Shown here in pieces: positions 2,122 to 16,794 of a DNA stretch of 16,794 nt. Source of the DNA: an uncultured Pseudomonadota bacterium (GTDB lineage Bacteria > Pseudomonadota > Gammaproteobacteria > Methylococcales > Methylomonadaceae); NCBI GenBank assembly GCA_903875455.1, contig CAIQWF010000086.1:1-16794 (forward strand). The letters run 5' to 3'. How positions within the stretch are numbered: position 1 is the stretch's first letter; every line of letters begins with the position of its first letter. The translations under genes were made by a program, and so were the position numbers. Under the pieces are notes generated by a model that did not search any database, was not told the origin of the DNA, and saw nothing but the letters and a program-made list of their open reading frames with translations.

Positions 2122-2379
2122 AGTGAAAGATAAAAAATGGTGACACAACTGACAATGTCTTATTCTACACACATACGGCGTTGAACTTAGCAAATTTATC
2201 GTAGAATTTACTATGATGATACTTATGTTCGGGTGTAGAATTTTTAAAGACTCTAAATTTAGGTTTTAGTTTAAGAGTAATGTTTTACCCTAATCCATTA
2301 TTCAAAAAATCATGATAGGGCGAACCTAGAAAGATGTTTTTATCCTGTATGTGTAATTTTATTGTTTGGGAGAATTGTG

Positions 2380-3111
2380 ATGAATAACAAATTTAATAAA
2401 CGTATCGTTTTATTAGCTCTTAATATCGGGTTAATGGTGGGGAGTTTTGCTACAGGTAGTGCCATAGCAGCAGGGTGCGGACAAGCAAAACTGGTAGAAG
2501 CCGGAAGTGCAGGAATCAGTGTGAGTAAAAACACATGCCAGGAACAGTCAAGAGTTAATCTTGGTTCAGTATTGGAATTGTCGCCAGGAAGCAGAATGTG
2601 GTTAAAATTTGACCCCAATCCCACAGGCGAAAGCTTTCAATTGATTTGTCAAAATAGATCAGCGGCTGCGATAAATGTCAGTGTCGCCAGCACTGCTTCG
2701 CCCTGGATTAAACCCCAAGGCTTGAAAAACTGCGATCAATGGAAAAACAACAAACTTGTTTGTGAAGACGCGAGTGGAGAGAAAACCAGCTTTTTTTGCG
2801 CAATTGCCAGTGCTAAGCCAGAAAAATCCAAAAATCCGATGGAAGTGACCACCTCTGTAAAAATGCGTGGAATCCCGATGCCTGCTGTTGTACCTGTGGA
2901 AGATGTTATAAAAAGCATCAAGCCGGACATTGAGTTATGTAAAAGCTTATACAACGTAACTGAAAAAGCAGAAATGAGCTGGACTGTCTCGTTTGGAATT
3001 ATCAAAGACCTGTCAGTCAGTAGTGACAACAAAGACTTTATTACTTGTGTAGAAGGGGTAGTAAAACAGGCTAACTCAAATCAAGACGTTACCGTTAAAC
3101 ACTCTTTCTAG
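2380..3111 (+). CDS. Hypothetical secreted or periplasmic protein, Cys-rich (8 Cys), possibly a lipoprotein
   Basis: A GGGAGA ribosome-binding site sits 9-14 nt upstream of the ATG at 2380. The N-terminus MNNKFNKRIVLLALNIGLMVGSFATGSAIAAGC looks like a signal peptide, with a weak lipobox-like IAAGC. Eight cysteines are spread through the mature part. I do not recognise the family. The stop is only 10 nt before the cyclase gene. Confidence 0.55.
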   Translation: MNNKFNKRIVLLALNIGLMVGSFATGSAIAAGCGQAKLVEAGSAGISVSKNTCQEQSRVNLGSVLELSPGSRMWLKFDPNPTGESFQLICQNRSAAAINVSVASTASPWIKPQGLKNCDQWKNNKLVCEDASGEKTSFFCAIASAKPEKSKNPMEVTTSVKMRGIPMPAVVPVEDVIKSIKPDIELCKSLYNVTEKAEMSWTVSFGIIKDLSVSSDNKDFITCVEGVVKQANSNQDVTVKHSF

Positions 3112-3121
3112 TTGGTAGATT

Positions 3122-5293
3122 ATGAAAATGCGTCCCTTTACACATAAAAAGACCTTAGTTTTTTTTATGGTAGTTGCTGCTATAGTCGGCATATTTACCG
3201 ACTATAGCATGGGGACAAAAGTCGATTACTGGATACACGACTCTGCAATAGTTCATCAATATCGTAAAGAGTGGAAACACACTGGCATCGTAGTGCTGGA
3301 TAATGATGTTCCTTTCAGAGTCACCCGTATTCAGGCATTGCCACTGTTTGCCAGAGCAATTGAGCGTTTGGTTGCGGCAGGGGCGAAAGGCGTTTTTCTG
3401 GATGCCCAGGTATCCAAAGAAATAGAAGGGACAATGCCTTATGCCGTCTGTCTGGAGACTGACAGTAACCAACAAATACAAGCTCGCTGGTCTCGGCCGA
3501 AATGTGGTGTTAGTTCTGCAAATAAAAATGCCTGTACTATTACCAATAGCGAAGCAGGTAACGCACCACTAAAGATGAGCCCAGAAGCTATCGCCCGTTT
3601 TAGAATTGCGCCTTATCTGAATGACACTGATCACTTACCGGAGGATTTGCTTTATGACTTTGAAGCTGCTGCGGCAATTCCTGAAACTGGGGTAGTGGCC
3701 CATGAGCGTCTGGTGAGCAGATTATCTTCACCTATGGGCAGATGGCTGGATATGAGTGATGACCACGCTATTTTTCAACTAGCCAGTTTATTAAATCCTG
3801 AGAAAATTGCCAAGTTATACGAAAAAAATCCTTTATTGGACGAAAACTGTGATAACAATAGAAGATGTCGGCGAATACGATTAAGCAAGCCTATTCATGA
3901 TATCAATATAAAAAACAATCAGTTAATTTTGCCACTCAGCCAGTTAGCCTCCTGCAATAATACAATTGCCAACAAAACAGCAGCTTTGCTGAAAAATAAA
4001 TTAGTCATTTTACAAGTAGCAGGCCCTGCAGAAGCCACTGACATCATTGTAACACCAATGACCACCGCATTGTTTAGCCCTCAAATGATGACCCCTGGAG
4101 CGCAATATCTGGTCGATGAAATAGAAACTTTACTGAATCAAGATTATCCACAACAACCACCGCAAGCGGTGCGGATTCTGCTATTTATTTGTGCAGCAGC
4201 GTCAAGCGTTTGGCTAGGTGCTTATTTTTCTCTGGCTTTTTTGCTATTGAGTGCCACCGCTATTTTTATGATCATGGCCGCACTGTGCTTTTTTTATCCC
4301 ATAGTGCAATTATGGCCAGTCACAGCAGTCATGGTGACTTATTCTTTCGGTGCTTTGCAAATAGTCTCGATGCAGCTAATTTTAGGCGGCAGAAAAGGCA
4401 AAATATTATCGGAAATTTTGCCTAGACAGGTACTTGACCAACTCGAAAAAGTAGACTCGTTCAGGAGTAAACAATGCAATGTTGTAGTGCTGATGAGCGA
4501 CCTTGCAGGCTATACCACGGTCACAGAATTGTTAAAAAAGCCAGAGTATGTCATGGACCTGATGAACGACTATTTAGGCAGCACATCGATAGTGTTACAA
4601 AAAGAATACAATGGTATTTTGGAGGCTTATGTAGGAGATATGGTTTGTTATTACTGGGAATATGAAGAAGAAGAAAAACTTGCTGTTTATAAACAGGTTT
4701 TATCTGCAGCCATCAAATTATCAATTTTACAAAAAAACTTTTTCTCCTCAGTTGCTGAACGATATAAAGAATTATTAACACCGGAAGTACTTAAAGAAAT
4801 TAGCATTCTCATTAATGCCGGTATCGGTATTACTGCAGGCACTGTCGTTAAAGGTAATCTAGGTCCTAAAACAGGATTGAAAAAGTTTGCTATTTTAGGC
4901 GACCCTATTAATTTGGCTTCAAGGGTTGAAAGTTTAACCCGTCATTTTAACACTGAAATTATTGTTACAGGTGACTTTGCCGAAGCGATTACAGGAGATG
5001 AAAACTTAGCAGTTAGGCGGTTAGGAGCAATAACAGTGAAAGGAAGGCTTGTGCCGGAAGTGCTATATGCGCTAGGACAAAAAAGCGATCCCAGATTCAT
5101 GGCGGAAAACATAAACGCATGGGAACAATGGATTGCCGAAATAGAAAAAAAAGCTAATGCCAAAAACACTGCCAATGCCCGCATTATAGCCGCCTGCCCT
5201 ACAATTTATAGCAAAGACTACAAAACGGTTCTGGATTGGAGGGAAAAAGGGGTAATGAATGAAAATGGCGTTTGGCAATTGCACGAAAAATAA
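3122..5293 (+). CDS. Membrane-bound class III adenylate/guanylate cyclase with an N-terminal CHASE2-type sensor (TM, ~310-aa periplasmic domain, 3 TM, cyclase, ~100-aa C-terminal extension)
   Basis: 723-aa ORF. The N-terminal TM helix is TLVFFMVVAAIVGIFTDY. A long extracytoplasmic region follows, then a hydrophobic block (LLFICAAASSVWLGAYFSLAFLLLSATAIFMIMAALCFFYPIVQLWPVTAVMVTYSFGALQIVSMQLILGG). The class III cyclase core motifs are present: VVVLMSDLAGYT (metal Asp), AYVGDMV (second Asp), TAGTVVKGNLG and GDPINLASRVESL (transition-state Asn/Arg). This topology matches CHASE2-cyclase proteins. Confidence 0.75.
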   Translation: MKMRPFTHKKTLVFFMVVAAIVGIFTDYSMGTKVDYWIHDSAIVHQYRKEWKHTGIVVLDNDVPFRVTRIQALPLFARAIERLVAAGAKGVFLDAQVSKEIEGTMPYAVCLETDSNQQIQARWSRPKCGVSSANKNACTITNSEAGNAPLKMSPEAIARFRIAPYLNDTDHLPEDLLYDFEAAAAIPETGVVAHERLVSRLSSPMGRWLDMSDDHAIFQLASLLNPEKIAKLYEKNPLLDENCDNNRRCRRIRLSKPIHDINIKNNQLILPLSQLASCNNTIANKTAALLKNKLVILQVAGPAEATDIIVTPMTTALFSPQMMTPGAQYLVDEIETLLNQDYPQQPPQAVRILLFICAAASSVWLGAYFSLAFLLLSATAIFMIMAALCFFYPIVQLWPVTAVMVTYSFGALQIVSMQLILGGRKGKILSEILPRQVLDQLEKVDSFRSKQCNVVVLMSDLAGYTTVTELLKKPEYVMDLMNDYLGSTSIVLQKEYNGILEAYVGDMVCYYWEYEEEEKLAVYKQVLSAAIKLSILQKNFFSSVAERYKELLTPEVLKEISILINAGIGITAGTVVKGNLGPKTGLKKFAILGDPINLASRVESLTRHFNTEIIVTGDFAEAITGDENLAVRRLGAITVKGRLVPEVLYALGQKSDPRFMAENINAWEQWIAEIEKKANAKNTANARIIAACPTIYSKDYKTVLDWREKGVMNENGVWQLHEK

Positions 5294-8675: not shown

Positions 8676-9023
8676 ATGCCTTATTTAAATCTGACTACCA
8701 ATATTTCTGTTTCCGCAACTGAAACTTCCGAGCTGCTAAGCCAGTTTTCACAACTTCTGGCTCAAAAAACAGGCAAGCCAGAAAGTTATGTGATGGTGGA
8801 GATGACTACTGACAAACCGATGTTATTTGCCGGAAACAACAAACCGTTAGCGTACATCGAATGTAAGAGTATTGGACTAAGCATTTCGCAAACTAAACCT
8901 TTAGCCGCCGCTATTTGTCAGTTATTGCAAACTACTTTGCAGATTGATTCAGAACGAGTTTATATCGAGTTTAGTGATTGCAAAGCTGATTACTGGGGCT
9001 GGAACAGCTCAACATTTGGTTAA
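8676..9023 (+). CDS. Macrophage migration inhibitory factor (MIF)-family tautomerase homologue
   Basis: 115-aa ORF, MPYLNLTTNISVS...TGKPESYVMVEM...ECKSIGLSIS...RVYIEFSD...GWNSSTFG. Several MIF features are conserved. Pro2 is the catalytic Pro1 after Met removal. Lys32 sits in the TGKP motif. The SIG motif is present. The C-terminal GWNSSTF is almost identical to mammalian MIF GWNNSTFA. A GGAG site lies 8 nt upstream of the ATG. Confidence 0.8.
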   Translation: MPYLNLTTNISVSATETSELLSQFSQLLAQKTGKPESYVMVEMTTDKPMLFAGNNKPLAYIECKSIGLSISQTKPLAAAICQLLQTTLQIDSERVYIEFSDCKADYWGWNSSTFG

Positions 9024-9164: not shown

Positions 9165-10871
9165 TTATTTGATTTCTGCCTGGTTGTCGAGCTTTTTAAA
9201 AAATCCCTTTAAACCAGCTAGAGTTGACTTATTTTCACTGGCAACCTCTTCAGATTGAGTTTGTTTTACTGGTTTGGATTTTTTTGCGTCTGAAGGATTT
9301 AGCGGTTCTACAACCTCTGCCTGTTTGTCCAGTTTTTTAAAAAATCCTTTTAAGCCTCGATTCGAAGAATCTTTATTTTCAGCAACACTTTTTTCTTCAA
9401 CTTGTGCTTGTTTTTTAGGCTGGGATTTTTTTGGCTCCACCGATTCTGATGGTTTTGACGATGCTGTTTCTTCGGTTTTTTTCGCCAGAATTTTTTGATA
9501 AAAGCCCTTAAATTGATCCGGCAAATGCTTGGCTTTATCTGCTATTTCGTCAATCTGCTGTTTCGCAGGATTGAGCATATCTACCGGACTCGCCTGAGTT
9601 TTCTCTACCGTCTTTTTCACTTCTTTGCGTTTCGGATTAAGCTTTTGTTCCAGCTCGATAATCCGTGCTTCCGCTTGCTCCTGTTTGGCTATGATAGCAG
9701 CCGGAATGGTTTTTAATGGCGAGTTTTTATCACTCATCAGCGCTTTTTTAACTTCCAGGTCATATTCCAACCGGAAAATATAATTGCCTTGTTCTGCTAA
9801 CGCCGTATTTAGCTCAGCAATTTTTTGGGTTAACTCCAACTCAACTGTCGCTGGTTTTTTCGCATTTTTAGCCACCAATTCTTTAATAGCAGCTTCACTT
9901 TCCAATAGTTTTCTCTCTAAAGCCTGATTGCTTTCTTGCAGTCTTTCGATAGTTTGTTGCTGTGCCAAAGTTTCTGGTGATCTTGCCCCGGCTGATTTTG
10001 CGGAGCGGTCTGTCAGTCTTTCTTCCAGTCTTTCCAATTGCAGAGTTGCACCTTCCAATTGTTGTTGCTGTTCAAGTTTGCTTTGCTGAGCCTGTGTAAG
10101 TGCTGTTTGCAGTTCTTGTAATTTTTTTTCTGCTTGTTGCTGTTGCTCAACCTGGTTTTGCTGGCTTTGTTGACGTTCTGAGTGTAATTCCTGCAAAGCC
10201 GTTTCTAATTGCTGCTGTTGTTGCACTTCAGCCTGTTGTAGTTGTGCAAATTCTGTTTGAAGCTGTTGCAAATTTTGCTCTAACTGTTGTTGCGTGGCTT
10301 TTGCCTGTTCTGCAAGCTCTGTTTGTTGCATCAAAAATTTTTGCTCTATCTGGCTAACTTGTGCTTTTTGCTGGTTTAGTTCAGTCGTTAATTCGTTTAT
10401 CGCTGCGTCTTTCTCGGCTAAACTGACTTCCCAGCTTTGTTTCAGACTTTCCTGCTTATTCTCAGATTCCTGTAATCGCTGGGTTAATTGTGCAAATTCC
10501 TGATTTTTTTGATTGAGTGATAACTCCAACATTGAAGTCCGTTTTGCTTCAGTTTCCGCAGCCTGTTTGTCTTTTTCTAATTCTTGGTTATTTTTTTCTA
10601 ATTCTGCAATCTGCGCAGCTTGCTCCGTTATTTTAAGTTCTGTCAGCTGGTTTTTTTGTTGCAAACTATTCAAATCAGTACCCAGCTGCATTCGCTGTTG
10701 CTCAGAACTGGTAATTTCTTTTTCTAAGGTGGTGCGCAACTGGTTTAATCGTGACCTGCTTGCTGCTGCCATCATTAACCAAATTAAAATAGCCGACACC
10801 ACAAAACTTATTGCTGCGGCTAACAGCGTGGTTTCCAGATTATATTCCAGACCAAGTAAAAAATCGGGCAT
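9165..10871 (-). CDS. Membrane-anchored coiled-coil protein, Q/E-rich, with C-terminal tandem 48-aa repeats
   Basis: 568-aa ORF with a GGAGA site 7 nt upstream of the ATG. The N-terminal TM helix is LLAAAISFVVSAILIWLMMAAA. About 400 aa of heptad-like, Q/E/L-rich sequence follow, including poly-Q runs. The C-terminus carries two copies of GLKGFFKKLD(K/N)QAE(V/I) spaced 48 aa apart, which corresponds to a diverged ~144-nt tandem DNA repeat at about 9170..9460. Confidence 0.6.
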   Translation of the reverse strand: MPDFLLGLEYNLETTLLAAAISFVVSAILIWLMMAAASRSRLNQLRTTLEKEITSSEQQRMQLGTDLNSLQQKNQLTELKITEQAAQIAELEKNNQELEKDKQAAETEAKRTSMLELSLNQKNQEFAQLTQRLQESENKQESLKQSWEVSLAEKDAAINELTTELNQQKAQVSQIEQKFLMQQTELAEQAKATQQQLEQNLQQLQTEFAQLQQAEVQQQQQLETALQELHSERQQSQQNQVEQQQQAEKKLQELQTALTQAQQSKLEQQQQLEGATLQLERLEERLTDRSAKSAGARSPETLAQQQTIERLQESNQALERKLLESEAAIKELVAKNAKKPATVELELTQKIAELNTALAEQGNYIFRLEYDLEVKKALMSDKNSPLKTIPAAIIAKQEQAEARIIELEQKLNPKRKEVKKTVEKTQASPVDMLNPAKQQIDEIADKAKHLPDQFKGFYQKILAKKTEETASSKPSESVEPKKSQPKKQAQVEEKSVAENKDSSNRGLKGFFKKLDKQAEVVEPLNPSDAKKSKPVKQTQSEEVASENKSTLAGLKGFFKKLDNQAEIK

Positions 10872-11011
10872 AAGTAGTCTCCATATAAAAAATCAACAAG
10901 TAAGAATGTTAAGTTATAAACTGCCAAACTGCTAAAGTAAAGGAATGGCCTGCAAAGCACAAGGCAATTGCCCCCTACTTCTAACCAGTATGAAGATATT
11001 GACAGGGCATT

Positions 11012-11063
11012 ATAAACAAAACAACCGCTCTGCTTGCCACAAGGTGACTCGCAGGAGCGGTTG
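11012..11063 (-). terminator. Rho-independent terminator of ppiD
   Basis: Inverted repeat CAACCGCTC (11022..11030) and GAGCGGTTG (11055..11063), with the loop possibly forming a sub-stem. A plus-strand A-rich run AAACAAAACAA gives UUGUUUUGUUU directly after the hairpin on the minus strand. It is 27 nt downstream of the ppiD stop. Confidence 0.55.
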
Positions 11064-11089
11064 CCAATAACACAATTGAAAGATGAAAA

Positions 11090-12958
11090 CTACTGTTTTG
11101 CTGGTGGCAATGAAACCCTCACATCAGCATCTGCCTGCAAACTGCCAAGTACTGCTTCAAACATCGACTCTCCAAAAGCTTTAGCGATATTTTTTTCTGC
11201 CAACTTTAACTGTTTTTTATCGCTTTCACTCATCACCCCTTCGGTGACTTTATTTAGGCTAATCACAATTTGTTCGCCACTGGGCATGGCAACTGTCAGG
11301 ACGGTTGGCTTGCCGCCTACAGGTTTGGCAGCTTTAAATATCGCCTGACTGACCTGGGCTGGAACCTCCGCACTACTGCGACTTAATTTAGCCACCGTTT
11401 TAAGCGGCAGCTTATGTTCGGCCACTAAAGCAGAGAATTTTTTCCCTGCCAATAATTGCTTTTTAAGTTCGGCTGCTAAACTAATCGCGTCTTTTTTAGC
11501 CTTTTCAGCCAACAAAGCCGTGACAATGGCAGACTTAACTTCTTTTAGATCGCGAACGGCAGCAGGGTGATGTTCTTTCATCCTTAGCACCACAATTTTA
11601 TCAGTGCCCAGTTCCACAGGCTCGCTATTATTACCTTTTAATACCTCTTCTGAAAAAGCCGCACTTCGTACTGCCGCTTCTTTGGCAATCCCATCACCTG
11701 TTTCTTTGGTAAACAGCGGAGTTTTTTCTACCTGCACACCTAAAGCTTCGGCAACTGCGGTCAAGCTGTCGGGATTTTGATAGCTTACTTCGGCAAGCTT
11801 ATCATTTAAAGCATAAAAATTGGCTTCCGCTTCTTTACGTTGATACGCCTTGGTTACTTCGGCTTTTACCTCTGCAAACGGCTTTACTACTCCTGGTACT
11901 AATTCAGTGACTTTGATCAAATGATAGCCGTAAGCAGATTTAACCGGTTTTGACACTTCGTTGAGTTTTAATTTTCCCGCAACCTCTTCAAAGTTTTTCT
12001 CCATCACCCCCGCTTCAAACAAACCTAAATCTCCGCCTTTTGCAGCGGTAGCTTTATCTTCAGAAACCTCAGCCGCTAACGCTTCAAACGTTTTGGTTTT
12101 TAAAGCTTCCTGTGCAGCTTCAGCTTTTTTCAAAACGGCTTTTTCATCAGATCCTTTAGTGAAAGCAAATAAAATATGACTGATTTTACGCCGCTCTTTG
12201 CTGCTATAAAGTTGTTTTTGCTCCTCATAGAAGCTTTTTAGTTGTGCTTCCGTGGCGTTGACTTCCTTTGCCAAATTGTCCAGAGACAAAGTAGCGTATT
12301 CTATTGAAACCTGTTCCGGTGATTGATACTGGTTTTGGTGCTGCTGATAATAAGCTTTGATTTCCGCTTCAGTCGGTTGGCTGGTTGCAGGAGATACCGT
12401 AACAGTTGTGTATTCTATGTCGCGAAGCTGATTCTGAATTTTAAAGAAATGCTCGATGTCGTATGGGGTTGCAAAACTGCTATCAGTAATACTGCGCTGA
12501 TATTGTTCCATTACCTGGCTTTTTTTGATCCGGTTGACAAATTCTGTCGAAGAAAGATGTTGTGCTGACAATAAGTCCTGATAGCGTTTCTTATCAAACT
12601 TGCCATCCACTTTAAAATAGTCCATGTCCTGAATCAGTTCTCTGGTGGCTTTATCAGTAGCGGCCAAGCCTTGTTTTTCAACGTGTTGCAAAAGCACTTC
12701 GTCCTTGATTAACTTGTTTAAAGCCTGTTTTTTTAAAGTTTCCTCATCAATATTCATCCCTTGCAATTGCTGGCTGAATTGTTGATATGCCCTATTGACA
12801 TCATTTTGGAAAAACTCTTTATGATTAACTGATGCCACAGCTTTTTCTGAGCCACCCGAGATGTAATTTTCAATGCCCCACAATGTGAAAGGAACGCCAA
12901 TAACCAACACAAGCACCCAAGAAAAGGCTCTTGATTTCTCTCTAATTTTTGTCAACAT
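11090..12958 (-). CDS. ppiD: Periplasmic chaperone / peptidyl-prolyl isomerase PpiD
   Basis: The real start is probably MLTKIREKSRAFSWVLVLVIGVPFTLWG, with an N-terminal signal-anchor like E. coli PpiD. The track ORF extends 19 codons further upstream. A SurA-like chaperone region follows. A parvulin motif is present (SAYGYHLIKVTE). The length is typical (~620 aa). The gene sits beside hupB as in enterobacteria. Confidence 0.8.
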   Translation of the reverse strand: MLTKIREKSRAFSWVLVLVIGVPFTLWGIENYISGGSEKAVASVNHKEFFQNDVNRAYQQFSQQLQGMNIDEETLKKQALNKLIKDEVLLQHVEKQGLAATDKATRELIQDMDYFKVDGKFDKKRYQDLLSAQHLSSTEFVNRIKKSQVMEQYQRSITDSSFATPYDIEHFFKIQNQLRDIEYTTVTVSPATSQPTEAEIKAYYQQHQNQYQSPEQVSIEYATLSLDNLAKEVNATEAQLKSFYEEQKQLYSSKERRKISHILFAFTKGSDEKAVLKKAEAAQEALKTKTFEALAAEVSEDKATAAKGGDLGLFEAGVMEKNFEEVAGKLKLNEVSKPVKSAYGYHLIKVTELVPGVVKPFAEVKAEVTKAYQRKEAEANFYALNDKLAEVSYQNPDSLTAVAEALGVQVEKTPLFTKETGDGIAKEAAVRSAAFSEEVLKGNNSEPVELGTDKIVVLRMKEHHPAAVRDLKEVKSAIVTALLAEKAKKDAISLAAELKKQLLAGKKFSALVAEHKLPLKTVAKLSRSSAEVPAQVSQAIFKAAKPVGGKPTVLTVAMPSGEQIVISLNKVTEGVMSESDKKQLKLAEKNIAKAFGESMFEAVLGSLQADADVRVSLPPAKQ

Positions 12959-13064: not shown

Positions 13065-13141
13065 TGGCGGAGTGGACGGGGCTCGAACCCGCGACCCCCG
13101 GCGTGACAGGCCGGTATTCTAACCAACTGAACTACCACTCC
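13065..13141 (-). tRNA. tRNA-Asp (anticodon GTC)
   Basis: The reverse complement reads GGAGTGGTAGTTCAGTTGGTTAGAATACCGGCCTGTCACGCCGGGGGTCGCGGGTTCGAGCCCCGTCCACTCCGCCA. It has a cloverleaf, a GTC anticodon in the loop CCUGUCACG, and a 3' CCA. It is near-identical to E. coli tRNA-Asp. Confidence 0.95.
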
Positions 13142-13147
13142 TTAATC

Positions 13148-13223
13148 TGGTGGGTGCTGAGGGGTTCGAACCCCCGACCCTCGCCTTGTAAGGGCGATGC
13201 TCTCCCAACTGAGCTAAGCACCC
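13148..13223 (-). tRNA. tRNA-Val (anticodon TAC)
   Basis: The reverse complement reads GGGTGCTTAGCTCAGTTGGGAGAGCATCGCCCTTACAAGGCGAGGGTCGGGGGTTCGAACCCCTCAGCACCCACCA. The anticodon loop is CUUACAA, it ends in 3' CCA, and it is very similar to E. coli tRNA-Val(UAC). The plus-strand 64-aa ORF at 13064..13258 is an artefact of these tRNAs. Confidence 0.95.
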
Positions 13224-13874: not shown

Positions 13875-14924
13875 ATGTGCGCTGAACAACAACGCTGGCG
13901 CGGCCTTATGTTGGGAACCGCTGTCGGTGACTCAGTAGGCTTGGCGGCTGAAGGCATATCGCACCAACGCAATGCCAAAATATTTCGTCAGCAATGGCGG
14001 CAGCGCTTTTTTATCCGTTGGGGCATGTGCAGTGATGATACGGAACACACTGTCTTTGTCGCACAAGCTTTATTGGCTCATCCGACCCAGGTTGAGTCTT
14101 TTCGCAACCGTTTGGCGTGGAGTTTGCGCTGCTGGTTTCTGGCATTACCTGCTGGCATTGGTTTGGCGACCGGCAAAGCCATCATTAAATTATGGTTAGG
14201 ATTTAATCCGAAACACAGTGGTGTTTATTCCGCCGGGAATGGTCCTGCGATGCGGGTTGCGCCCATTGGTGCATTTTTCGCCCAACAACCAGCTTTGTTA
14301 AACGAATATCTGACCGCCTCAACCTTAATCACCCATACCGATAAAAAAGCCTTAATCGGGGCAAAAGCTATTGCAGAAACAATTGCCTGGGTATGGCGTG
14401 AAAATTTCACTAAAAAACCAGCGTTAGCTGATTTTATTGCGCTGTTGGGTCAAATTGATGCCGATACAGAATGGCAATCGTTGGTGAATCGGATTGAACA
14501 CGGGCTACAGCAAAATTTAACTGTCAATCAGTTTGCTGATTTGATGGGCTTAAGTCACGGAATTACCGGCTATATCTATCATACAGTGCCGATGGTGCTC
14601 TATGCCTGGTACAAACATTTTGGAGATTTTGCGCAAACTTTAACCAGCATTTGGGATTGTGGCGGTGATACTGATACAACCGGGGCAATTGTCGGAGCTT
14701 TAGCTGGCAGTGTGGCCGGTGAGCAAGGGATTCCGGCTGACTGGATAAACGCGATTTTGGAATATCCGCATTCGGTGAGTTTTTTACAAAAGCTGGCAGA
14801 CCGGCTTGCTAAACGTGAACATAAGCCGGTGTTTTGTTTTGCCCCCGCCATCATTTTGCGGAATTTATTTTTCTTGGGCGTAGTATTGCTGCATGGTTTT
14901 AGACGCTTGTTGCCACCTTATTAA
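13875..14924 (+). CDS. ADP-ribosylglycohydrolase family protein (DraG/ARH-like) with a hydrophobic C-terminal tail
   Basis: 349-aa ORF. ARH signature motifs are present: GTAVGDSVG near the N-terminus, CSDDTEHT, and C-terminal GGDTDTTGAIVGALAGSVAGEQGIPADW. A GGGGGAAG site lies 6 nt upstream of the ATG. The last ~30 residues (VFCFAPAIILRNLFFLGVVLLHGF) are strongly hydrophobic, which is unusual for this soluble enzyme family. Confidence 0.75.
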   Translation: MCAEQQRWRGLMLGTAVGDSVGLAAEGISHQRNAKIFRQQWRQRFFIRWGMCSDDTEHTVFVAQALLAHPTQVESFRNRLAWSLRCWFLALPAGIGLATGKAIIKLWLGFNPKHSGVYSAGNGPAMRVAPIGAFFAQQPALLNEYLTASTLITHTDKKALIGAKAIAETIAWVWRENFTKKPALADFIALLGQIDADTEWQSLVNRIEHGLQQNLTVNQFADLMGLSHGITGYIYHTVPMVLYAWYKHFGDFAQTLTSIWDCGGDTDTTGAIVGALAGSVAGEQGIPADWINAILEYPHSVSFLQKLADRLAKREHKPVFCFAPAIILRNLFFLGVVLLHGFRRLLPPY

Positions 14925-14973: not shown

Positions 14974-15001
14974 TTGCTAGGCTGGAGTCCCAACTCTTGA
15001 G
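14974..15001. other. Imperfect palindromic hairpin between convergent genes
   Basis: GGAGTCCCAACT-cttg-AGTTGAGACTCC: a 12-bp stem with one mismatch, followed by AAAAAA on the plus strand. It has the same GGAGT...ACTCC outer stem as the hairpin at 9040..9066. Confidence 0.4.
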
Positions 15002-15064
15002 TTGAGACTCCAAAAAACACGGGAAAATTTATGTTGAACCACTTAGAACTGGCGGTCGTGAACT

Positions 15065-16794
15065 TTATGTCAAATCATCCTGATTCACAACCACAGGAGA
15101 TTCTGCCAAAACTTTTTCCAGAATGGTGCCTTTCACCAGTTGCGAAAATACATCCGCAACACTGTTGCCGCCTAAAATAGCCAGCGGAGCCATACTCTCT
15201 GCCAGTTTTTGTGCTAACGCTTTATCCGCAAATGCCTGCATCGCCGCGATAAATTGTGGTGATACTGCCTGCGCCTGCTGCACAGTGGCGGCAACATTGG
15301 CTTGCAGCTCTTCAATCTGTTGTTGCAGCTGTGCTTTGCTAATGGCTAGATTCAAATCGGTTTGCGCTTTATGGCGGGTTAATTCCGCCTGATTAATGCT
15401 GTCTAATTGTTGCTGCTTGGCAAGGTCTGCTTCCAGCCGCTGCTTTTCCACGCCAATCTCATTATTGAGTTTGGCTAAATTCACCGCAAGCTGCTTGTTA
15501 AAAGTGGCAATATCCAAATCCAGTTGCAATTGTTGGGTTTCGGCGCTGGTTTGCAGAATTTTTTGTTTTATCGCCTCCTGTTGCTGTTTCAATTCCAAAT
15601 TACGTTTTTCGCTGGCAATTTCCAGGGTTTGCTGTACCACACTGTGCTGGGCGCGAATCAATAATTGCGAAATAGCCGCGTCCTGAATCGCCACATCCAA
15701 CACTTCCACATCATAAACGTGCATTCCATTTTCCGAAAACAGCAAGCCTGCTCTCACACCCGCTTCATTAGCAGTGCCGAGCAAGGTATCACGCACTAAC
15801 CCAATCGCATTGGCATAAAAAGTTTCGATGCCGTATTTTTTAATCGCATAGCGCAAAATTGAGCGAATATGTTCGGTCAAAAATTTCACATAGTTTTCAA
15901 TATCAAACCATTTATTCGGCTCGCCGGTAAAATTAACCTGATACGACACTAATAATTGTACCGGGCAAAAATCGGCAGTTTCCACCTCAATCCGATCTGA
16001 AACCTTGTTATGCAAGGAGCGCAAATAGACGGTTTTTATCGGTTGCTCATCAGTTTTTGGGGTGCCGGTGGACAAGTAAATGGTTTGCAGGGTTTCGTCA
16101 TATTCCAGCAAATAAGTTTGCGGCCCGACGATGACTTTACGGTCGCCATTTTTGCTGACCACCATCACTGCATAGCCGGTCCAGACATCAATCGACACCG
16201 CACCTTCATATTTGGTATCTAAGGTAATGGTGCGCGGTTTGGTGAAATCCTGTCTGCGGTTGAATTCTTCACTGGCAATAATTGCAGGAGCTGGAGCGGC
16301 ATCAGACAAGGCGCCACGTTGTAAATAAGAACGTGCTTGTTGCTCATCAACAAAATCACTGCCCAATGTTTTTTTCTGATTTAACGCCATTAACTGGGTG
16401 TTATATTCCAACGCTTCTTTATTGCCGGGAAACCAGATTGCCACCAGTTTCGGGTCTATTACCCGCCTTGCAATCACTTGTTTGCGCGGGTCAGGTAAAA
16501 ACATGCAGGGGCCACGCTGCAAAGTAATTTGCCCACTCAAGCGGTTCAACACATAACGCGCTTCACCTGCCGGAATTGCCACCGCATAATTGATTTCCTG
16601 ATCACTGTAACGGACGATGGCATGTTCAGGACGCGGAAAATAAATCATCTGCTCTTTGCCGGTGATAAACAGTTCATCGCCGACCTGATAGGCTTTGCCA
16701 TTTTCTTGGTATGGGGCAATGACCTTGATGTAAATGCCGCTGATTTCATTCAGCTCAATCGCCCGAAATTTAACGGCACCGTCTTTTTTGATAA
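15065..16794 (-). CDS. Major vault protein (MVP) homologue; C-terminal ~576 aa visible and the N-terminus is beyond the window edge
   Basis: I extended the reading frame by hand and it stays open from the track's Met at 16648 up to position 16794, so the gene is 5'-truncated by the window. The translated sequence aligns with human MVP as I recall it. MVP-repeat-like unit: [46 protein letters not shown] versus MVP [26 protein letters not shown]. Shoulder region: [28 protein letters not shown]...[25 protein letters not shown] versus MVP [28 protein letters not shown]...[61 protein letters not shown] versus MVP [32 protein letters not shown]. A ~150-aa Q/E/A-rich helix follows, as in the MVP cap-helix. 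The tail is [21 protein letters not shown]. Confidence 0.8.
   Translation of the reverse strand, partial: [575 protein letters not shown]

What the first reader, a model, noticed from the sequence alone, without database searches (positions are those of the whole stretch)
15065..16794. Bacterial homologue of the eukaryotic major vault protein
The minus-strand gene that runs off the right edge of the window is an MVP homologue. It has MVP-repeat-like beta units (G[DE]E[WL][LF][VI]T..., ...[10 protein letters not shown]...), the shoulder domain with the near-invariant IETAD block and the F.QNG...V.V..V block, a long Q/E-rich cap-helix, and an MVP-like C-terminal tail. The feature entry lists the alignments. 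MVP is the shell protein of vaults. Vaults are multi-megadalton ribonucleoprotein particles regarded as a eukaryotic hallmark. Bacterial homologues are rare and are usually explained by horizontal transfer. Codon usage here looks, by eye, like the neighbouring core genes (AT-rich third positions), so this is not a freshly acquired contaminant-like insert. Only the last ~576 residues are visible, so the number of N-terminal repeats and the real start are unknown.
Basis: partly seen in the sequence, partly recalled or inferred. Interest (0 to 1): 0.9.

Follow-up and report, generated by a model that had tools for sequence, protein, structure and literature searches.

The report
Bacterial major vault protein homologue, truncated
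The gene at the right edge of the contig really does encode a bacterial relative of the eukaryotic vault shell protein. It belongs to a large bacterial family already described in silico, so it is a correct identification but not a rare or new kind of find.

Summary
A minus-strand ORF is open from the contig edge (16792) to a TAA stop at 15065-15067, giving 575 aa. It hits Pfam MVP_shoulder at E=4.5e-27. A family profile hits only MVP chains in the PDB (E~1e-21). It aligns colinearly with rat MVP 273-846 (hhalign 99.8%, E=6e-29, 27% identity).

An AlphaFold model of the 90%-identical full-length orthologue (819 aa, pLDDT 84) shows about seven beta repeat domains, an SPFH shoulder, one 136-residue cap helix and a C-terminal tail. 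Foldseek ranks full-length vault chains first (E to 8e-35), then the MVP R1-R7 crystal structure (E=5.5e-15), then flotillin, prohibitin and HflK/C (E>=7e-8). It is therefore not a generic SPFH protein.

The premise behind the high interest fails. The family has at least 553 clusters at 50% identity, occurs in at least 10 phyla and in 735-kb phages, and was described in 2013, 2019, 2023 and 2026 papers. Its members are 21-26% identical to rat MVP but 44-90% identical to each other.

No partner gene is conserved, no vault RNA was found, and the human NAD+ pocket is not kept. The gene is under strong purifying selection (dN/dS 0.04-0.08). Verdict: new member of a known kind. Cage assembly is plausible but untested.

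The parts
15065..16794 (-). 3' 70% of the MVP-family gene. Coding is 15068-16792 (575 aa), the TAA stop is 15065-15067, and 16793-16794 is a partial codon at the contig end. About 244 N-terminal residues are missing.
   Evidence: It is 90% identical over its full length to residues 245-819 of the 819-aa protein P0001.
16742..16792 (-). C-terminal remnant of beta repeat 4 of the bacterial protein (P0001 245-261). It lies in the region equivalent to rat repeat R6.
   Evidence: Secondary structure of the AF2 model and the hhalign register.
16562..16741 (-). Beta repeat 5 (fragment aa 18-77), equivalent to rat R7. It contains [11 protein letters not shown].
   Evidence: pLDDT is above 90.
16196..16561 (-). 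Beta repeat 6 with a helical insert and a disordered loop (fragment aa 78-199), equivalent to rat R8.
   Evidence: strands 322-354, helices 358-405, low-confidence loop 406-443. Register.
16010..16195 (-). Beta repeat 7 (fragment aa 200-261), equivalent to rat R9. It contains [14 protein letters not shown] and the invariant S-x-G-x-P-K loop.
   Evidence: Pfam Vault_3 at aa 215-257. Alignments. S485 and K490 are invariant in 132/132 sequences.
15680..16009 (-). Shoulder domain with an SPFH/Band-7 fold (fragment aa 262-371). It contains IEVETADF and [16 protein letters not shown].
   Evidence: Pfam MVP_shoulder at aa 261-371, E=4.5e-27, and Band_7 at 29.3 bits. pLDDT is 94-98.
15272..15679 (-). 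Cap helix: one uninterrupted Q/E-rich helix of about 136 residues (fragment aa 372-507).
   Evidence: DSSP helix 616-751 in the model. It aligns with the rat cap helix. Length variants in the family mostly step by 7, 11 or 18 residues.
15068..15271 (-). C-terminal region equivalent to the cap ring (fragment aa 508-575). It contains [13 protein letters not shown]...APLAILGG.
   Evidence: It aligns with rat 803-846. It is conserved in the family. Model confidence is low here.

Best explanation
This is the C-terminal 575 residues of a roughly 819-residue soluble bacterial member of the major vault protein family.

Shown:
- It is homologous to and colinear with eukaryotic MVP from the first repeat to the C-terminus. 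In the full-length orthologue the order is about seven small beta repeat domains, an SPFH-type shoulder, one very long cap helix and a C-terminal tail.
- The gene is intact as far as the contig goes and is under strong purifying selection.
- It stands alone, with no conserved partner gene.

Inferred:
- Like MVP and the other SPFH-family proteins whose assemblies have been solved (HflK/C, flotillin, prohibitin, stomatin, erlin), many copies pack side by side. The shoulders would form a ring, the cap helices a closed helical barrel, and the repeat domains the wall of a hollow cup.
- Two cups may pair through their N-termini into a closed vault-like cage in the cytoplasm that encloses or sequesters cargo.
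- Cargo and physiological role are unknown. With seven repeats instead of nine, and a cap helix about 12 residues shorter, the particle would be shorter than the rat vault.
For: Identity:
- Pfam MVP_shoulder E=4.5e-27. MVP_shoulder and Vault_3 hit 30/30 relatives.
- The family profile hits only MVP chains in the PDB.
- hhalign against verified rat MVP: probability 99.8%, E=5.8e-29, P0001 209-797 aligned with rat 273-846.
- The N-terminal piece 6-122 aligns with rat 4-106, probability 91.8%.

Fold:
- AF2 model pLDDT 84.3.
- In Foldseek the 12 best hits are full-length vault chains (E 8e-35 to 3e-27), then MVP R1-R7 (E 5.5e-15, TM 0.59), then other SPFH cages (E>=7e-8).

Functional gene: dN/dS is 0.036 against the 90% orthologue and 0.076 against the 78% orthologue.

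Soluble: none of 132 family members has a 19-residue window with Kyte-Doolittle hydropathy of 1.6 or more.

Helix packing constraint: the shoulder-to-tail spacer is 149 aa in 77/132 members. Most variants differ by 7, 11, 18, 22 or 29 residues, which are coiled-coil register steps.

Assembly precedent: solved MVP, flotillin, prohibitin, HflK/C, stomatin and erlin cages are the nearest structures. Daly et al. 2013 predicted that bacterial homologues can dock laterally (PMC3762200).
Against: - No oligomer was modelled or observed. Assembly is inferred by analogy only.
- I found no experimental report of a bacterial vault in the searchable literature.
- There are about seven repeats, not nine.
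- The middle of the repeat array (P0001 about 128-208) has no significant sequence match to rat R3-R5.
- No vault RNA was found in the window or in two related loci.
- No TEP1-, PARP- or vWA-type neighbour occurs among 137 flanking proteins from 45 loci.
- The human NAD+/ADP-ribose pocket is not conserved.
- The N-terminal 244 residues of this particular gene are not in the window.
Confidence: 0.6

Rival explanations
1. The protein has the MVP fold but assembles differently from a two-halved closed vault. It might form a single open cup or a smaller ring capping some other structure or surface. The 10-mer cup modelled for Asgard MVP is one such example.
For: - There are about seven repeats instead of nine, and the cap helix is shorter.
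- All other SPFH relatives form single cups (hits).
- The Asgard homologue was modelled as a 10-mer cup (PMC12962969).
- Nothing here tests the N-terminal waist contact.
Against: - The N-terminal R1-R2 region, which makes the waist contact in rat vaults (established knowledge, Tanaka et al. 2009), is the best conserved part of the repeat array and aligns with rat 4-106.
- No membrane anchor is present to seal an open cup.
Confidence: 0.27
2. It is an ordinary SPFH/flotillin-type membrane scaffold, and the similarity to MVP is limited to a generic SPFH domain plus coiled coil.
For: - Band_7 passes its Pfam cut-off (29.3 against 23.6 bits).
Against: - MVP_shoulder scores 94.9 bits against 29.3 for Band_7.
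- The PDB profile search returns only MVP.
- Foldseek puts MVP about 20-27 orders of magnitude ahead of flotillin.
- The repeat array matches MVP R1-R7.
- The alignment is colinear across R6-R9 and R1-R2.
- No hydrophobic anchor occurs in any of 132 members.
Confidence: 0.02
3. It is a recent transfer from a eukaryote, or eukaryotic contamination of the assembly.
For: GC3 is 0.48, the highest in the window, and codon usage is the most deviant among the long genes.
Against: - Identity to rat MVP is only 23-27%, against 58-61% to Desulfobacterota, Chloroflexota and Sericytochromatia and 78-90% to close relatives.
- The gene sits on one contig with hupB, ppiD, mutM, tRNA-Asp and tRNA-Val.
- All bacterial and phage sequences form one tight cluster on a long branch away from rat in a rough NJ tree without support values.
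Confidence: 0.01
4. The protein works with ADP-ribose signalling. The convergent neighbour is an ADP-ribosylglycohydrolase, and eukaryotic vaults carry a PARP, a TIR-like NADase and bind NAD+/ADP-ribose in the shoulder.
For: - The ADP-ribosylglycohydrolase gene (PF03747, E=2.4e-55) ends 140 nt from the MVP stop. The same pair lies on a second short contig.
- Human vault shoulders bind NAD+/ADP-ribose (PMC12280208; bioRxiv 2026.05.01.722283).
- Four of the six non-cyanobacterial MVP carriers of Daly 2013 are among the 27 bacterial species with a PARP in Perina 2014.
- K490, the equivalent of human K506, is invariant.
Against: - The two genes are convergent, so they are not an operon.
- The ADP-ribosylglycohydrolase is absent from all 45 related loci.
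- No ADP-ribose-related family is enriched among 137 flanking proteins.
- Of 12 mapped pocket residues only K506 is kept. H509, P565 and K573 are replaced by acidic residues.
- The species overlap may just reflect large genomes rich in acquired eukaryote-like genes.
Confidence: 0.06
5. It is a mobile, conflict-related gene, either a phage-derived shell or an anti-phage device, spread by horizontal transfer.
For: - Full-length homologues occur in 735-kb and 462-kb uncultured phage genomes (44% identity to P0001). Gut phages also carry the gene (bioRxiv 2023.11.10.566534).
- The gene context differs in every lineage.
- The tree is incongruent with taxonomy.
- GC3 is deviant.
Against: - There is no hit in PADLOC or PHROGs and none on plasmids.
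- No phage or defence genes lie nearby in the window.
- Very strong purifying selection and 50-60% identity across phyla are unusual for arms-race genes.
Confidence: 0.04

Closest known systems
Bacterial 'putative MVP homologues' of Daly et al. 2013 (Saprospira grandis H6L4P8, Plesiocystis pacifica A6FXM1/A6FXE2, Microscilla marina, Corallococcus, Flexibacter litoralis, Herpetosiphon), also Sokolskyi 2019
   Same: Same family. The Saprospira grandis and Plesiocystis pacifica genes were recovered as loci L021 and L023 at 53-54% identity over the whole fragment. Length is the same (about 805-890 aa), as are the Pfam hits (MVP_shoulder, Vault_3, often Band_7). All are about 25% identical to eukaryotic MVP.
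   Different: The host lineage differs. The closest genome hit is a Methylococcaceae MAG (78%), not one of the gliding Myxococcota or Bacteroidota that the literature emphasises. This copy is truncated by the contig end.
Eukaryotic major vault protein (rat/human; PDB 4V60, 4HL8, 9BW5)
   Same: - Same domain order and fold: beta repeats, SPFH shoulder, cap helix, C-terminal ring region.
- Colinear alignment with rat 4-106 and 273-846.
- Shared motifs: IETAD, xNG...V.V..V, GP..Y/L turns, S-x-G-x-P-K.
- No membrane anchor.
   Different: - Only 23-27% identity.
- About seven repeats instead of nine. One domain stands where rat has R3-R5.
- The cap-helix spacer is about 12 residues shorter.
- The NAD+/ADP-ribose pocket residues are not kept.
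- No vault RNA, TEP1 or PARP4 partner was detectable in the available sequence.
- Assembly has not been demonstrated.
SPFH-family cages (HflK/C, flotillin, prohibitin, stomatin, erlin, QmcA)
   Different: Those proteins are membrane anchored and have no N-terminal array of beta repeat domains. This family has the array and no hydrophobic segment.
Asgard archaeal MVP homologues (Nat Microbiol 2026, PMC12962969)
   Same: Prokaryotic proteins with predicted MVP architecture and fewer repeats than the rat protein.
   Different: The Asgard representative has five repeats and only ten homologues were reported. This bacterial family has about seven repeats and hundreds of sequence clusters. I did not test the relationship between the two.
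Phage-encoded MVP homologues (bioRxiv 2023.11.10.566534; here also LR756500, LR756501 and LR756503)
   Same: Full-length homologues (809 aa) at 42-44% identity, colinear over the whole protein.
   Different: They are encoded by viruses, and in the rough NJ tree they lie on a longer branch.

Membership tests
Major vault protein family (Pfam MVP_shoulder PF11978 plus Vault repeat families) | MVP-type shoulder domain | tested here: met
   PF11978 scores 94.9 bits (cut-off 25), E=4.5e-27, at aa 261-371 of the window protein. It hits 30/30 relatives.
Major vault protein family (Pfam MVP_shoulder PF11978 plus Vault repeat families) | Array of small beta MVP repeat domains N-terminal to the shoulder | tested here: met
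   By HMM alone the result is borderline. Vault_3 scores 26.5 bits (cut-off 28.8) in the fragment and 32.8 in P0001. PF01505 hits only 6/30 relatives weakly. The feature is met by profile and by structure:
- hhalign is colinear with rat R6-R9 and R1-R2.
The window itself shows only the last three repeats and a remnant of a fourth.
Major vault protein family (Pfam MVP_shoulder PF11978 plus Vault repeat families) | Long single cap helix directly after the shoulder | tested here: met
   The model has a helix at 616-751 (136 residues). It aligns with the rat cap helix.
Major vault protein family (Pfam MVP_shoulder PF11978 plus Vault repeat families) | C-terminal cap-ring region | tested here: inconclusive
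   The sequence aligns with rat 803-846 and is conserved in the family. The model is of low confidence there (pLDDT below 50).
Canonical eukaryotic vault particle | Nine repeat domains R1-R9 | tested here: not met
   The model of the orthologue has about seven repeat domains, counted from secondary structure and alignment registers. This cannot be counted in the window itself because the 5' end is missing.
Canonical eukaryotic vault particle | Self-assembly into a closed 78-mer (two 39-mer halves) cage | not testable with these tools
   No multimer prediction or experiment was available. The only indirect hint is the heptad/hendecad-stepped conservation of cap-helix length.
Canonical eukaryotic vault particle | Association with vault RNA, TEP1 (TROVE/WD40) and PARP4 | tested here: not met
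   Rfam finds no vault RNA in the window, L011 or L045. No TROVE, PARP, vWA or WD40 family appears among 137 proteins flanking the gene in 45 loci. The test covers only about 10 kb either side, so the rest of each genome was not examined.
Canonical eukaryotic vault particle | NAD+/ADP-ribose pocket at the shoulder 'keyhole loop' (human R504, K506, R507, P508, H509, R511, L517, D521, F522, W545, P565, K573) | tested here: not met
   Only K506 is kept (K490, 132/132). D521 becomes N. H509, P565 and K573 become D/E. W545 becomes V (residues from PMC12280208).
SPFH/Band-7 membrane scaffolds (stomatin, prohibitin, flotillin, HflK/C) | SPFH domain | tested here: met
SPFH/Band-7 membrane scaffolds (stomatin, prohibitin, flotillin, HflK/C) | Membrane anchor (N-terminal transmembrane or hairpin segment) and no large N-terminal soluble array | tested here: not met
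   No 19-residue window reaches hydropathy 1.6 in any of 132 full-length relatives. About 500 residues of beta repeats precede the SPFH domain.

The most novel reading that the evidence does not exclude
This gene is one representative of a pan-bacterial and huge-phage family that builds real vault-like megadalton cages in the bacterial cytoplasm. That would be an unrecognised class of bacterial protein compartment and the prokaryotic stock from which eukaryotic vaults descend. A weaker add-on is that, in some lineages such as this one with an adjacent ADP-ribosylglycohydrolase, the particle is tied to ADP-ribose metabolism, as human vaults now appear to be.
Probability: 0.35. Interest if true: 0.65.

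Novelty: new member of a known kind. Interest (0 to 1): 0.3.

Why it matters
Vault function is a 40-year-old open question, and vaults are still widely described as exclusive to eukaryotes. Bacterial homologues offer simpler, partner-free systems for asking what the shell does by itself. This window adds no new principle.

It does show a few things about the family:
- It reaches a gammaproteobacterial lineage. The closest genome hit is a Methylococcaceae MAG.
- It is far larger and more conserved than the 'few bacteria' cited in recent papers. It has 553 clusters at 50% identity, with 50-60% identity between phyla.
- It has about seven rather than nine repeats.
- It travels as a solo gene.

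The practical value is as a pointer to cultured carriers, such as Saprospira grandis and Plesiocystis pacifica, for expression and imaging.

Tried and rejected
1. Single-sequence phmmer of the fragment against the PDB found nothing at E<=1. The profile search was needed.
2. The first AF2 run used 30 close relatives and was unusable in the N-terminal half (pLDDT 52). Its Foldseek TM-scores (0.14-0.16) are not meaningful. It was replaced by a 132-sequence alignment.
3. I looked for a conserved partner gene and found none.
   - tblastn of the ADP-ribosylglycohydrolase, HU, PpiD, the coiled-coil protein and MIF against 45 loci gave no hits.
   - All-against-all clustering of flanking ORFs gave only lineage-local synteny plus shadow ORFs inside the MVP gene.
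   - The one cross-lineage cluster (7 loci) is made of hybrid histidine kinases with different sensor domains. I take this as chance in kinase-rich genomes.
   - A Pfam census of 137 neighbours showed nothing enriched.
4. Rfam found only tRNAs and no vault RNA.
5. PADLOC and PHROGs gave no hit for the MVP protein. No plasmid carries it.
6. The terminator scan of the 140-nt spacer found no canonical terminator. An inverted repeat is present there.
7. Extending the gene from other assemblies failed. The only other contig carrying the same ADP-ribosylglycohydrolase is 2,983 nt and has no DNA on file.
8. The afdb50 fold library was unavailable.
9. I did not run a rigorous phylogeny with eukaryotic and Asgard sequences. 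The NJ tree is rough and has no support values.
Full report
**What is in the sequence**

The window is a complete 16,794-nt metagenomic contig. On the minus strand an ORF is open from nt 16792 down to a TAA stop at 15065-15067, giving 575 residues. Translating from 16794, as the finding's coordinates imply, is out of frame. The gene runs off the contig, so its start is not available here.

The rest of the contig is ordinary bacterial gene content:
- a BioH-like hydrolase and mutM;
- a class III nucleotide cyclase and a TPR protein;
- a MIF/tautomerase-family protein;
- ppiD, tRNA-Asp and tRNA-Val, and hupB;
- an ADP-ribosylglycohydrolase that converges on the gene of interest.

The closest copy of the gene in species-representative genomes is in a Methylococcaceae MAG at 78% identity. 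A metagenomic protein, P0001 (819 aa), is 90% identical over the whole fragment. The window is therefore probably gammaproteobacterial. That is an inference from the best hit and from the hupB-ppiD arrangement, which I know from enterobacteria.

**Is it an MVP homologue?**

Yes. The sequence evidence is as follows.
- Pfam MVP_shoulder scores 94.9 bits against a cut-off of 25 (E=4.5e-27). Band_7 passes weakly. Vault_3 falls just short in the fragment (26.5 against 28.8 bits) but passes in the full-length orthologue.
- All 30 relatives examined hit MVP_shoulder and Vault_3. The classical Vault repeat model is seen only weakly, in 6 of 30.
- A profile of 30 relatives finds only MVP chains among 177,635 distinct PDB sequences (E about 1e-21).
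- I wrote rat MVP from memory and verified it against PDB 4HL8/4V60. It was identical apart from one residue, and I used the PDB version.
- A 132-sequence family profile aligns with rat MVP at 99.8% probability, E=5.8e-29 and 27% identity. P0001 209-797 aligns colinearly with rat 273-846.
- The N-terminal piece, P0001 6-122, aligns with rat 4-106 at 91.8% probability.
- The window protein itself gives 26% identity over 389 residues by BLASTP.

**Fold**

A first AlphaFold run with a shallow alignment was poor. A second run with 132 diverse relatives gave pLDDT 84.3 and pTM 0.64. The model shows:
- about seven small beta domains at roughly 9-58, 59-128, 133-200, 206-258, 262-318, 322-443 (with helices and a disordered loop) and 444-500;
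- a shoulder at 506-615;
- a single helix at 616-751;
- a low-confidence C-terminal region.

The alignment registers match the rat domain borders as I recall them from Tanaka et al. 2009 (shoulder from 520, cap helix from 647, cap ring from 803). The last four bacterial repeats correspond to rat R6-R9 and the first two to R1-R2. One domain stands where rat has R3-R5. The window shows the tail of repeat 4, repeats 5-7, the shoulder, the cap helix and the C-terminal region.

The fold searches gave these results.
- Foldseek against the PDB ranks twelve full-length vault chains first (E 8e-35 to 3e-27, TM up to 0.48-0.52).
- Next comes the MVP R1-R7 crystal structure (E=5.5e-15, TM 0.59 on the target).
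- Flotillin, prohibitin, HflK/C, erlin and stomatin follow (E>=7e-8).

So the shoulder and helix alone are generic SPFH features, as expected. The repeat array is what makes this an MVP.

**How common is it, and is it known?**

The word-indexed search returned 4,859 significant hits among the 8,000 candidates scored. The best 120 are nearly all 805-900 aa, and several are already named 'major vault protein' by JGI or UniRef. An exhaustive HMMER search of 1.84 billion 50%-identity representatives found 553 clusters at E<=1e-30.

Species-representative genomes with the gene span these groups:
- Desulfobacterota, Myxococcota and Bacteroidota;
- Chloroflexota and Cyanobacteriota (Sericytochromatia);
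- Pseudomonadota, Eremiobacterota and Nitrospirota;
- Spirochaetota and Lentisphaerota.

The family is strikingly conserved, with 69% mean column identity among 30 members from many phyla. A rough NJ tree does not follow taxonomy. For example, the Burkholderiales copy pairs with an Eremiobacterota copy, and the nearest relatives of the window clade are Desulfobacterales, Caldilinea and Ca. Venteria. All bacterial and phage sequences are 21-26% identical to rat MVP.

The literature already describes these proteins in silico:
- Daly et al. 2013 list Saprospira, Plesiocystis, Microscilla, Corallococcus, Flexibacter and Herpetosiphon homologues at about 25% identity to eukaryotic MVP and predict lateral docking.
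- Sokolskyi 2019.
- A 2023 preprint on phage MVPs.
- A 2026 paper on Asgard MVPs, which still speaks of 'only a few Bacteria'.

I found no experimental structure or imaging of a bacterial vault.

**Is the gene functional and native?**

dN/dS against the 90% and 78% orthologues is 0.036 and 0.076. dS is near saturation, so these values are approximate. GC3 is 0.48 against 0.24-0.45 for the other eleven genes, and the codon-usage correlation is the lowest among the long genes. A moderately old horizontal acquisition is plausible, as is a bias linked to expression level.

**Partners**

None is conserved.
- The adjacent ADP-ribosylglycohydrolase is absent from all 45 related loci.
- Flanking-gene clusters are conserved only within close lineages.
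- The one cross-lineage cluster consists of heterogeneous hybrid histidine kinases.
- A Pfam census of 137 flanking proteins shows no enriched family and no PARP, TROVE, vWA, WD40 or macrodomain proteins.
- Rfam finds no vault RNA.
- In the 90% orthologue's contig an RND efflux pump lies 54 nt upstream on the same strand.

**NAD+/ADP-ribose pocket**

Human vaults bind NAD+, ADP and ADP-ribose behind a basic 'keyhole loop' in the shoulder. I mapped twelve of the pocket residues onto the 132-sequence alignment.
- Only K506 is kept, and it is invariant.
- D521 is replaced by an almost invariant Asn.
- H509, P565 and K573 are replaced by acidic residues.
- W545 is replaced by Val.

The S-x-G-x-P-K motif at the base of the loop and one shoulder arginine are invariant in bacteria and shared with rat. 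The human pocket as such is not conserved, although the loop is clearly important.

**Mechanism**

Shown: homology, domain order, solubility (no hydrophobic segment in any of 132 members) and purifying selection.

Inferred: lateral self-assembly into a cup or closed cage, as in every solved relative. One new piece of indirect support concerns the distance between the end of the shoulder and the start of the C-terminal region. It is 149 residues in 77 of 132 members. Most other lengths differ by 7, 11, 18, 22 or 29 residues. That is the pattern expected if the helix must keep a coiled-coil register with its neighbours.

I put about 0.6 on a vault-like closed cage and about 0.27 on a different assembly with the same fold. 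Small weights go to an ADP-ribose link and to a conflict-related role. The generic SPFH and eukaryotic-contaminant readings are effectively excluded.

**Verdict**

The claim of rarity, and hence the high interest, does not hold. This is a new, truncated member of a known, widespread and experimentally unexplored bacterial MVP family.

Noticed in passing
window 13875-14924 (+): An ADP-ribosylglycohydrolase gene (PF03747, E=2.4e-55) converges on the MVP gene, with 140 nt between the two stops. Its last ~30 residues are hydrophobic (FCFAPAIILRNLFFLGVVLLHGF), which is unusual for this family. The pairing is suggestive because human vaults bind ADP-ribose, but it is absent from all 45 related loci.
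   Followed up: yes
literature: PMC3762200 and PMC4245714: Four of the six non-cyanobacterial MVP-carrying species listed in 2013 (Microscilla marina, Flexibacter litoralis, Plesiocystis pacifica, Herpetosiphon aurantiacus) are also among the only 27 bacterial species reported in 2014 to encode a PARP. No genome-wide co-occurrence test was run.
   Followed up: partly
L046:3272-5701 (LR756501.1, 735,411-nt uncultured phage; also LR756503.1 and LR756500.1): Some very large phage genomes encode a full-length 809-aa MVP homologue. It is 44% identical to P0001 over 816 aligned positions. The records carry no annotation.
   Followed up: partly
alignment A2, P0001 residues 607-756 (window about 15257-15706): The cap-helix spacer length is quantised across the family. 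It is 149 aa in 77/132 members. The commoner variants are 138, 142, 160, 131 and 167 aa, which differ by 11, 7, 11, 18 and 18 residues, as expected for a helix held in coiled-coil register.
   Followed up: partly
L045:6821-9946 (+), next to the MVP gene at 10001-12460: In the contig of the 90%-identical orthologue an AcrB-type RND efflux pump gene ends 54 nt upstream of the MVP gene on the same strand. The same pair occurs on a second contig. Co-transcription is possible. The corresponding region of the window lies beyond the contig end.
   Followed up: no
window 9165-10871 (-): This encodes a 568-aa protein with an N-terminal hydrophobic segment and a very long Q/E-rich coiled coil. Its C-terminus has two copies of a ~45-aa unit (…GLKGFFKKLD.QAE…). 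It has no Pfam hit. The region has the strongest AT skew in the window (about -0.4).
   Followed up: no
window 14983-15013: An imperfect inverted repeat (GGAGTCCCAACTC ttg AGTTGAGACTCC followed by AAAAAA) lies in the spacer between the convergent ADP-ribosylglycohydrolase and MVP genes. The A-run is on the wrong side for a canonical terminator of either gene.
   Followed up: partly
window 3122-5293 (+): This encodes a 723-aa membrane protein with a C-terminal class III nucleotide cyclase domain. It gives weak hits to Pycsar cyclase models in PADLOC (E=4.8e-8). That is probably generic cyclase similarity.
   Followed up: no
window 2362-3111 (+): This 249-aa ORF has a signal-peptide-like N-terminus and no Pfam hit. 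It has the most deviant codon usage in the window (correlation 0.64 with the other genes).
   Followed up: no
L001:5709-6743 (-); L002, L009, L011, L012, L016, L023, L037: A caspase-domain (Peptidase_C14) plus SH3 protein lies about 1.2 kb upstream of the MVP gene in a Desulfobacterales genome. Hybrid histidine kinases with differing sensor domains lie close to the MVP gene in seven loci from five lineages. I judged this to be chance, but did not test it statistically.
   Followed up: partly
window 8676-9023 (+) and 13065-13223 (-): There is a MIF/tautomerase-family gene (PF01187, E=3.8e-23). tRNA-Asp(GTC) and tRNA-Val(TAC) sit between ppiD and hupB.
   Followed up: no
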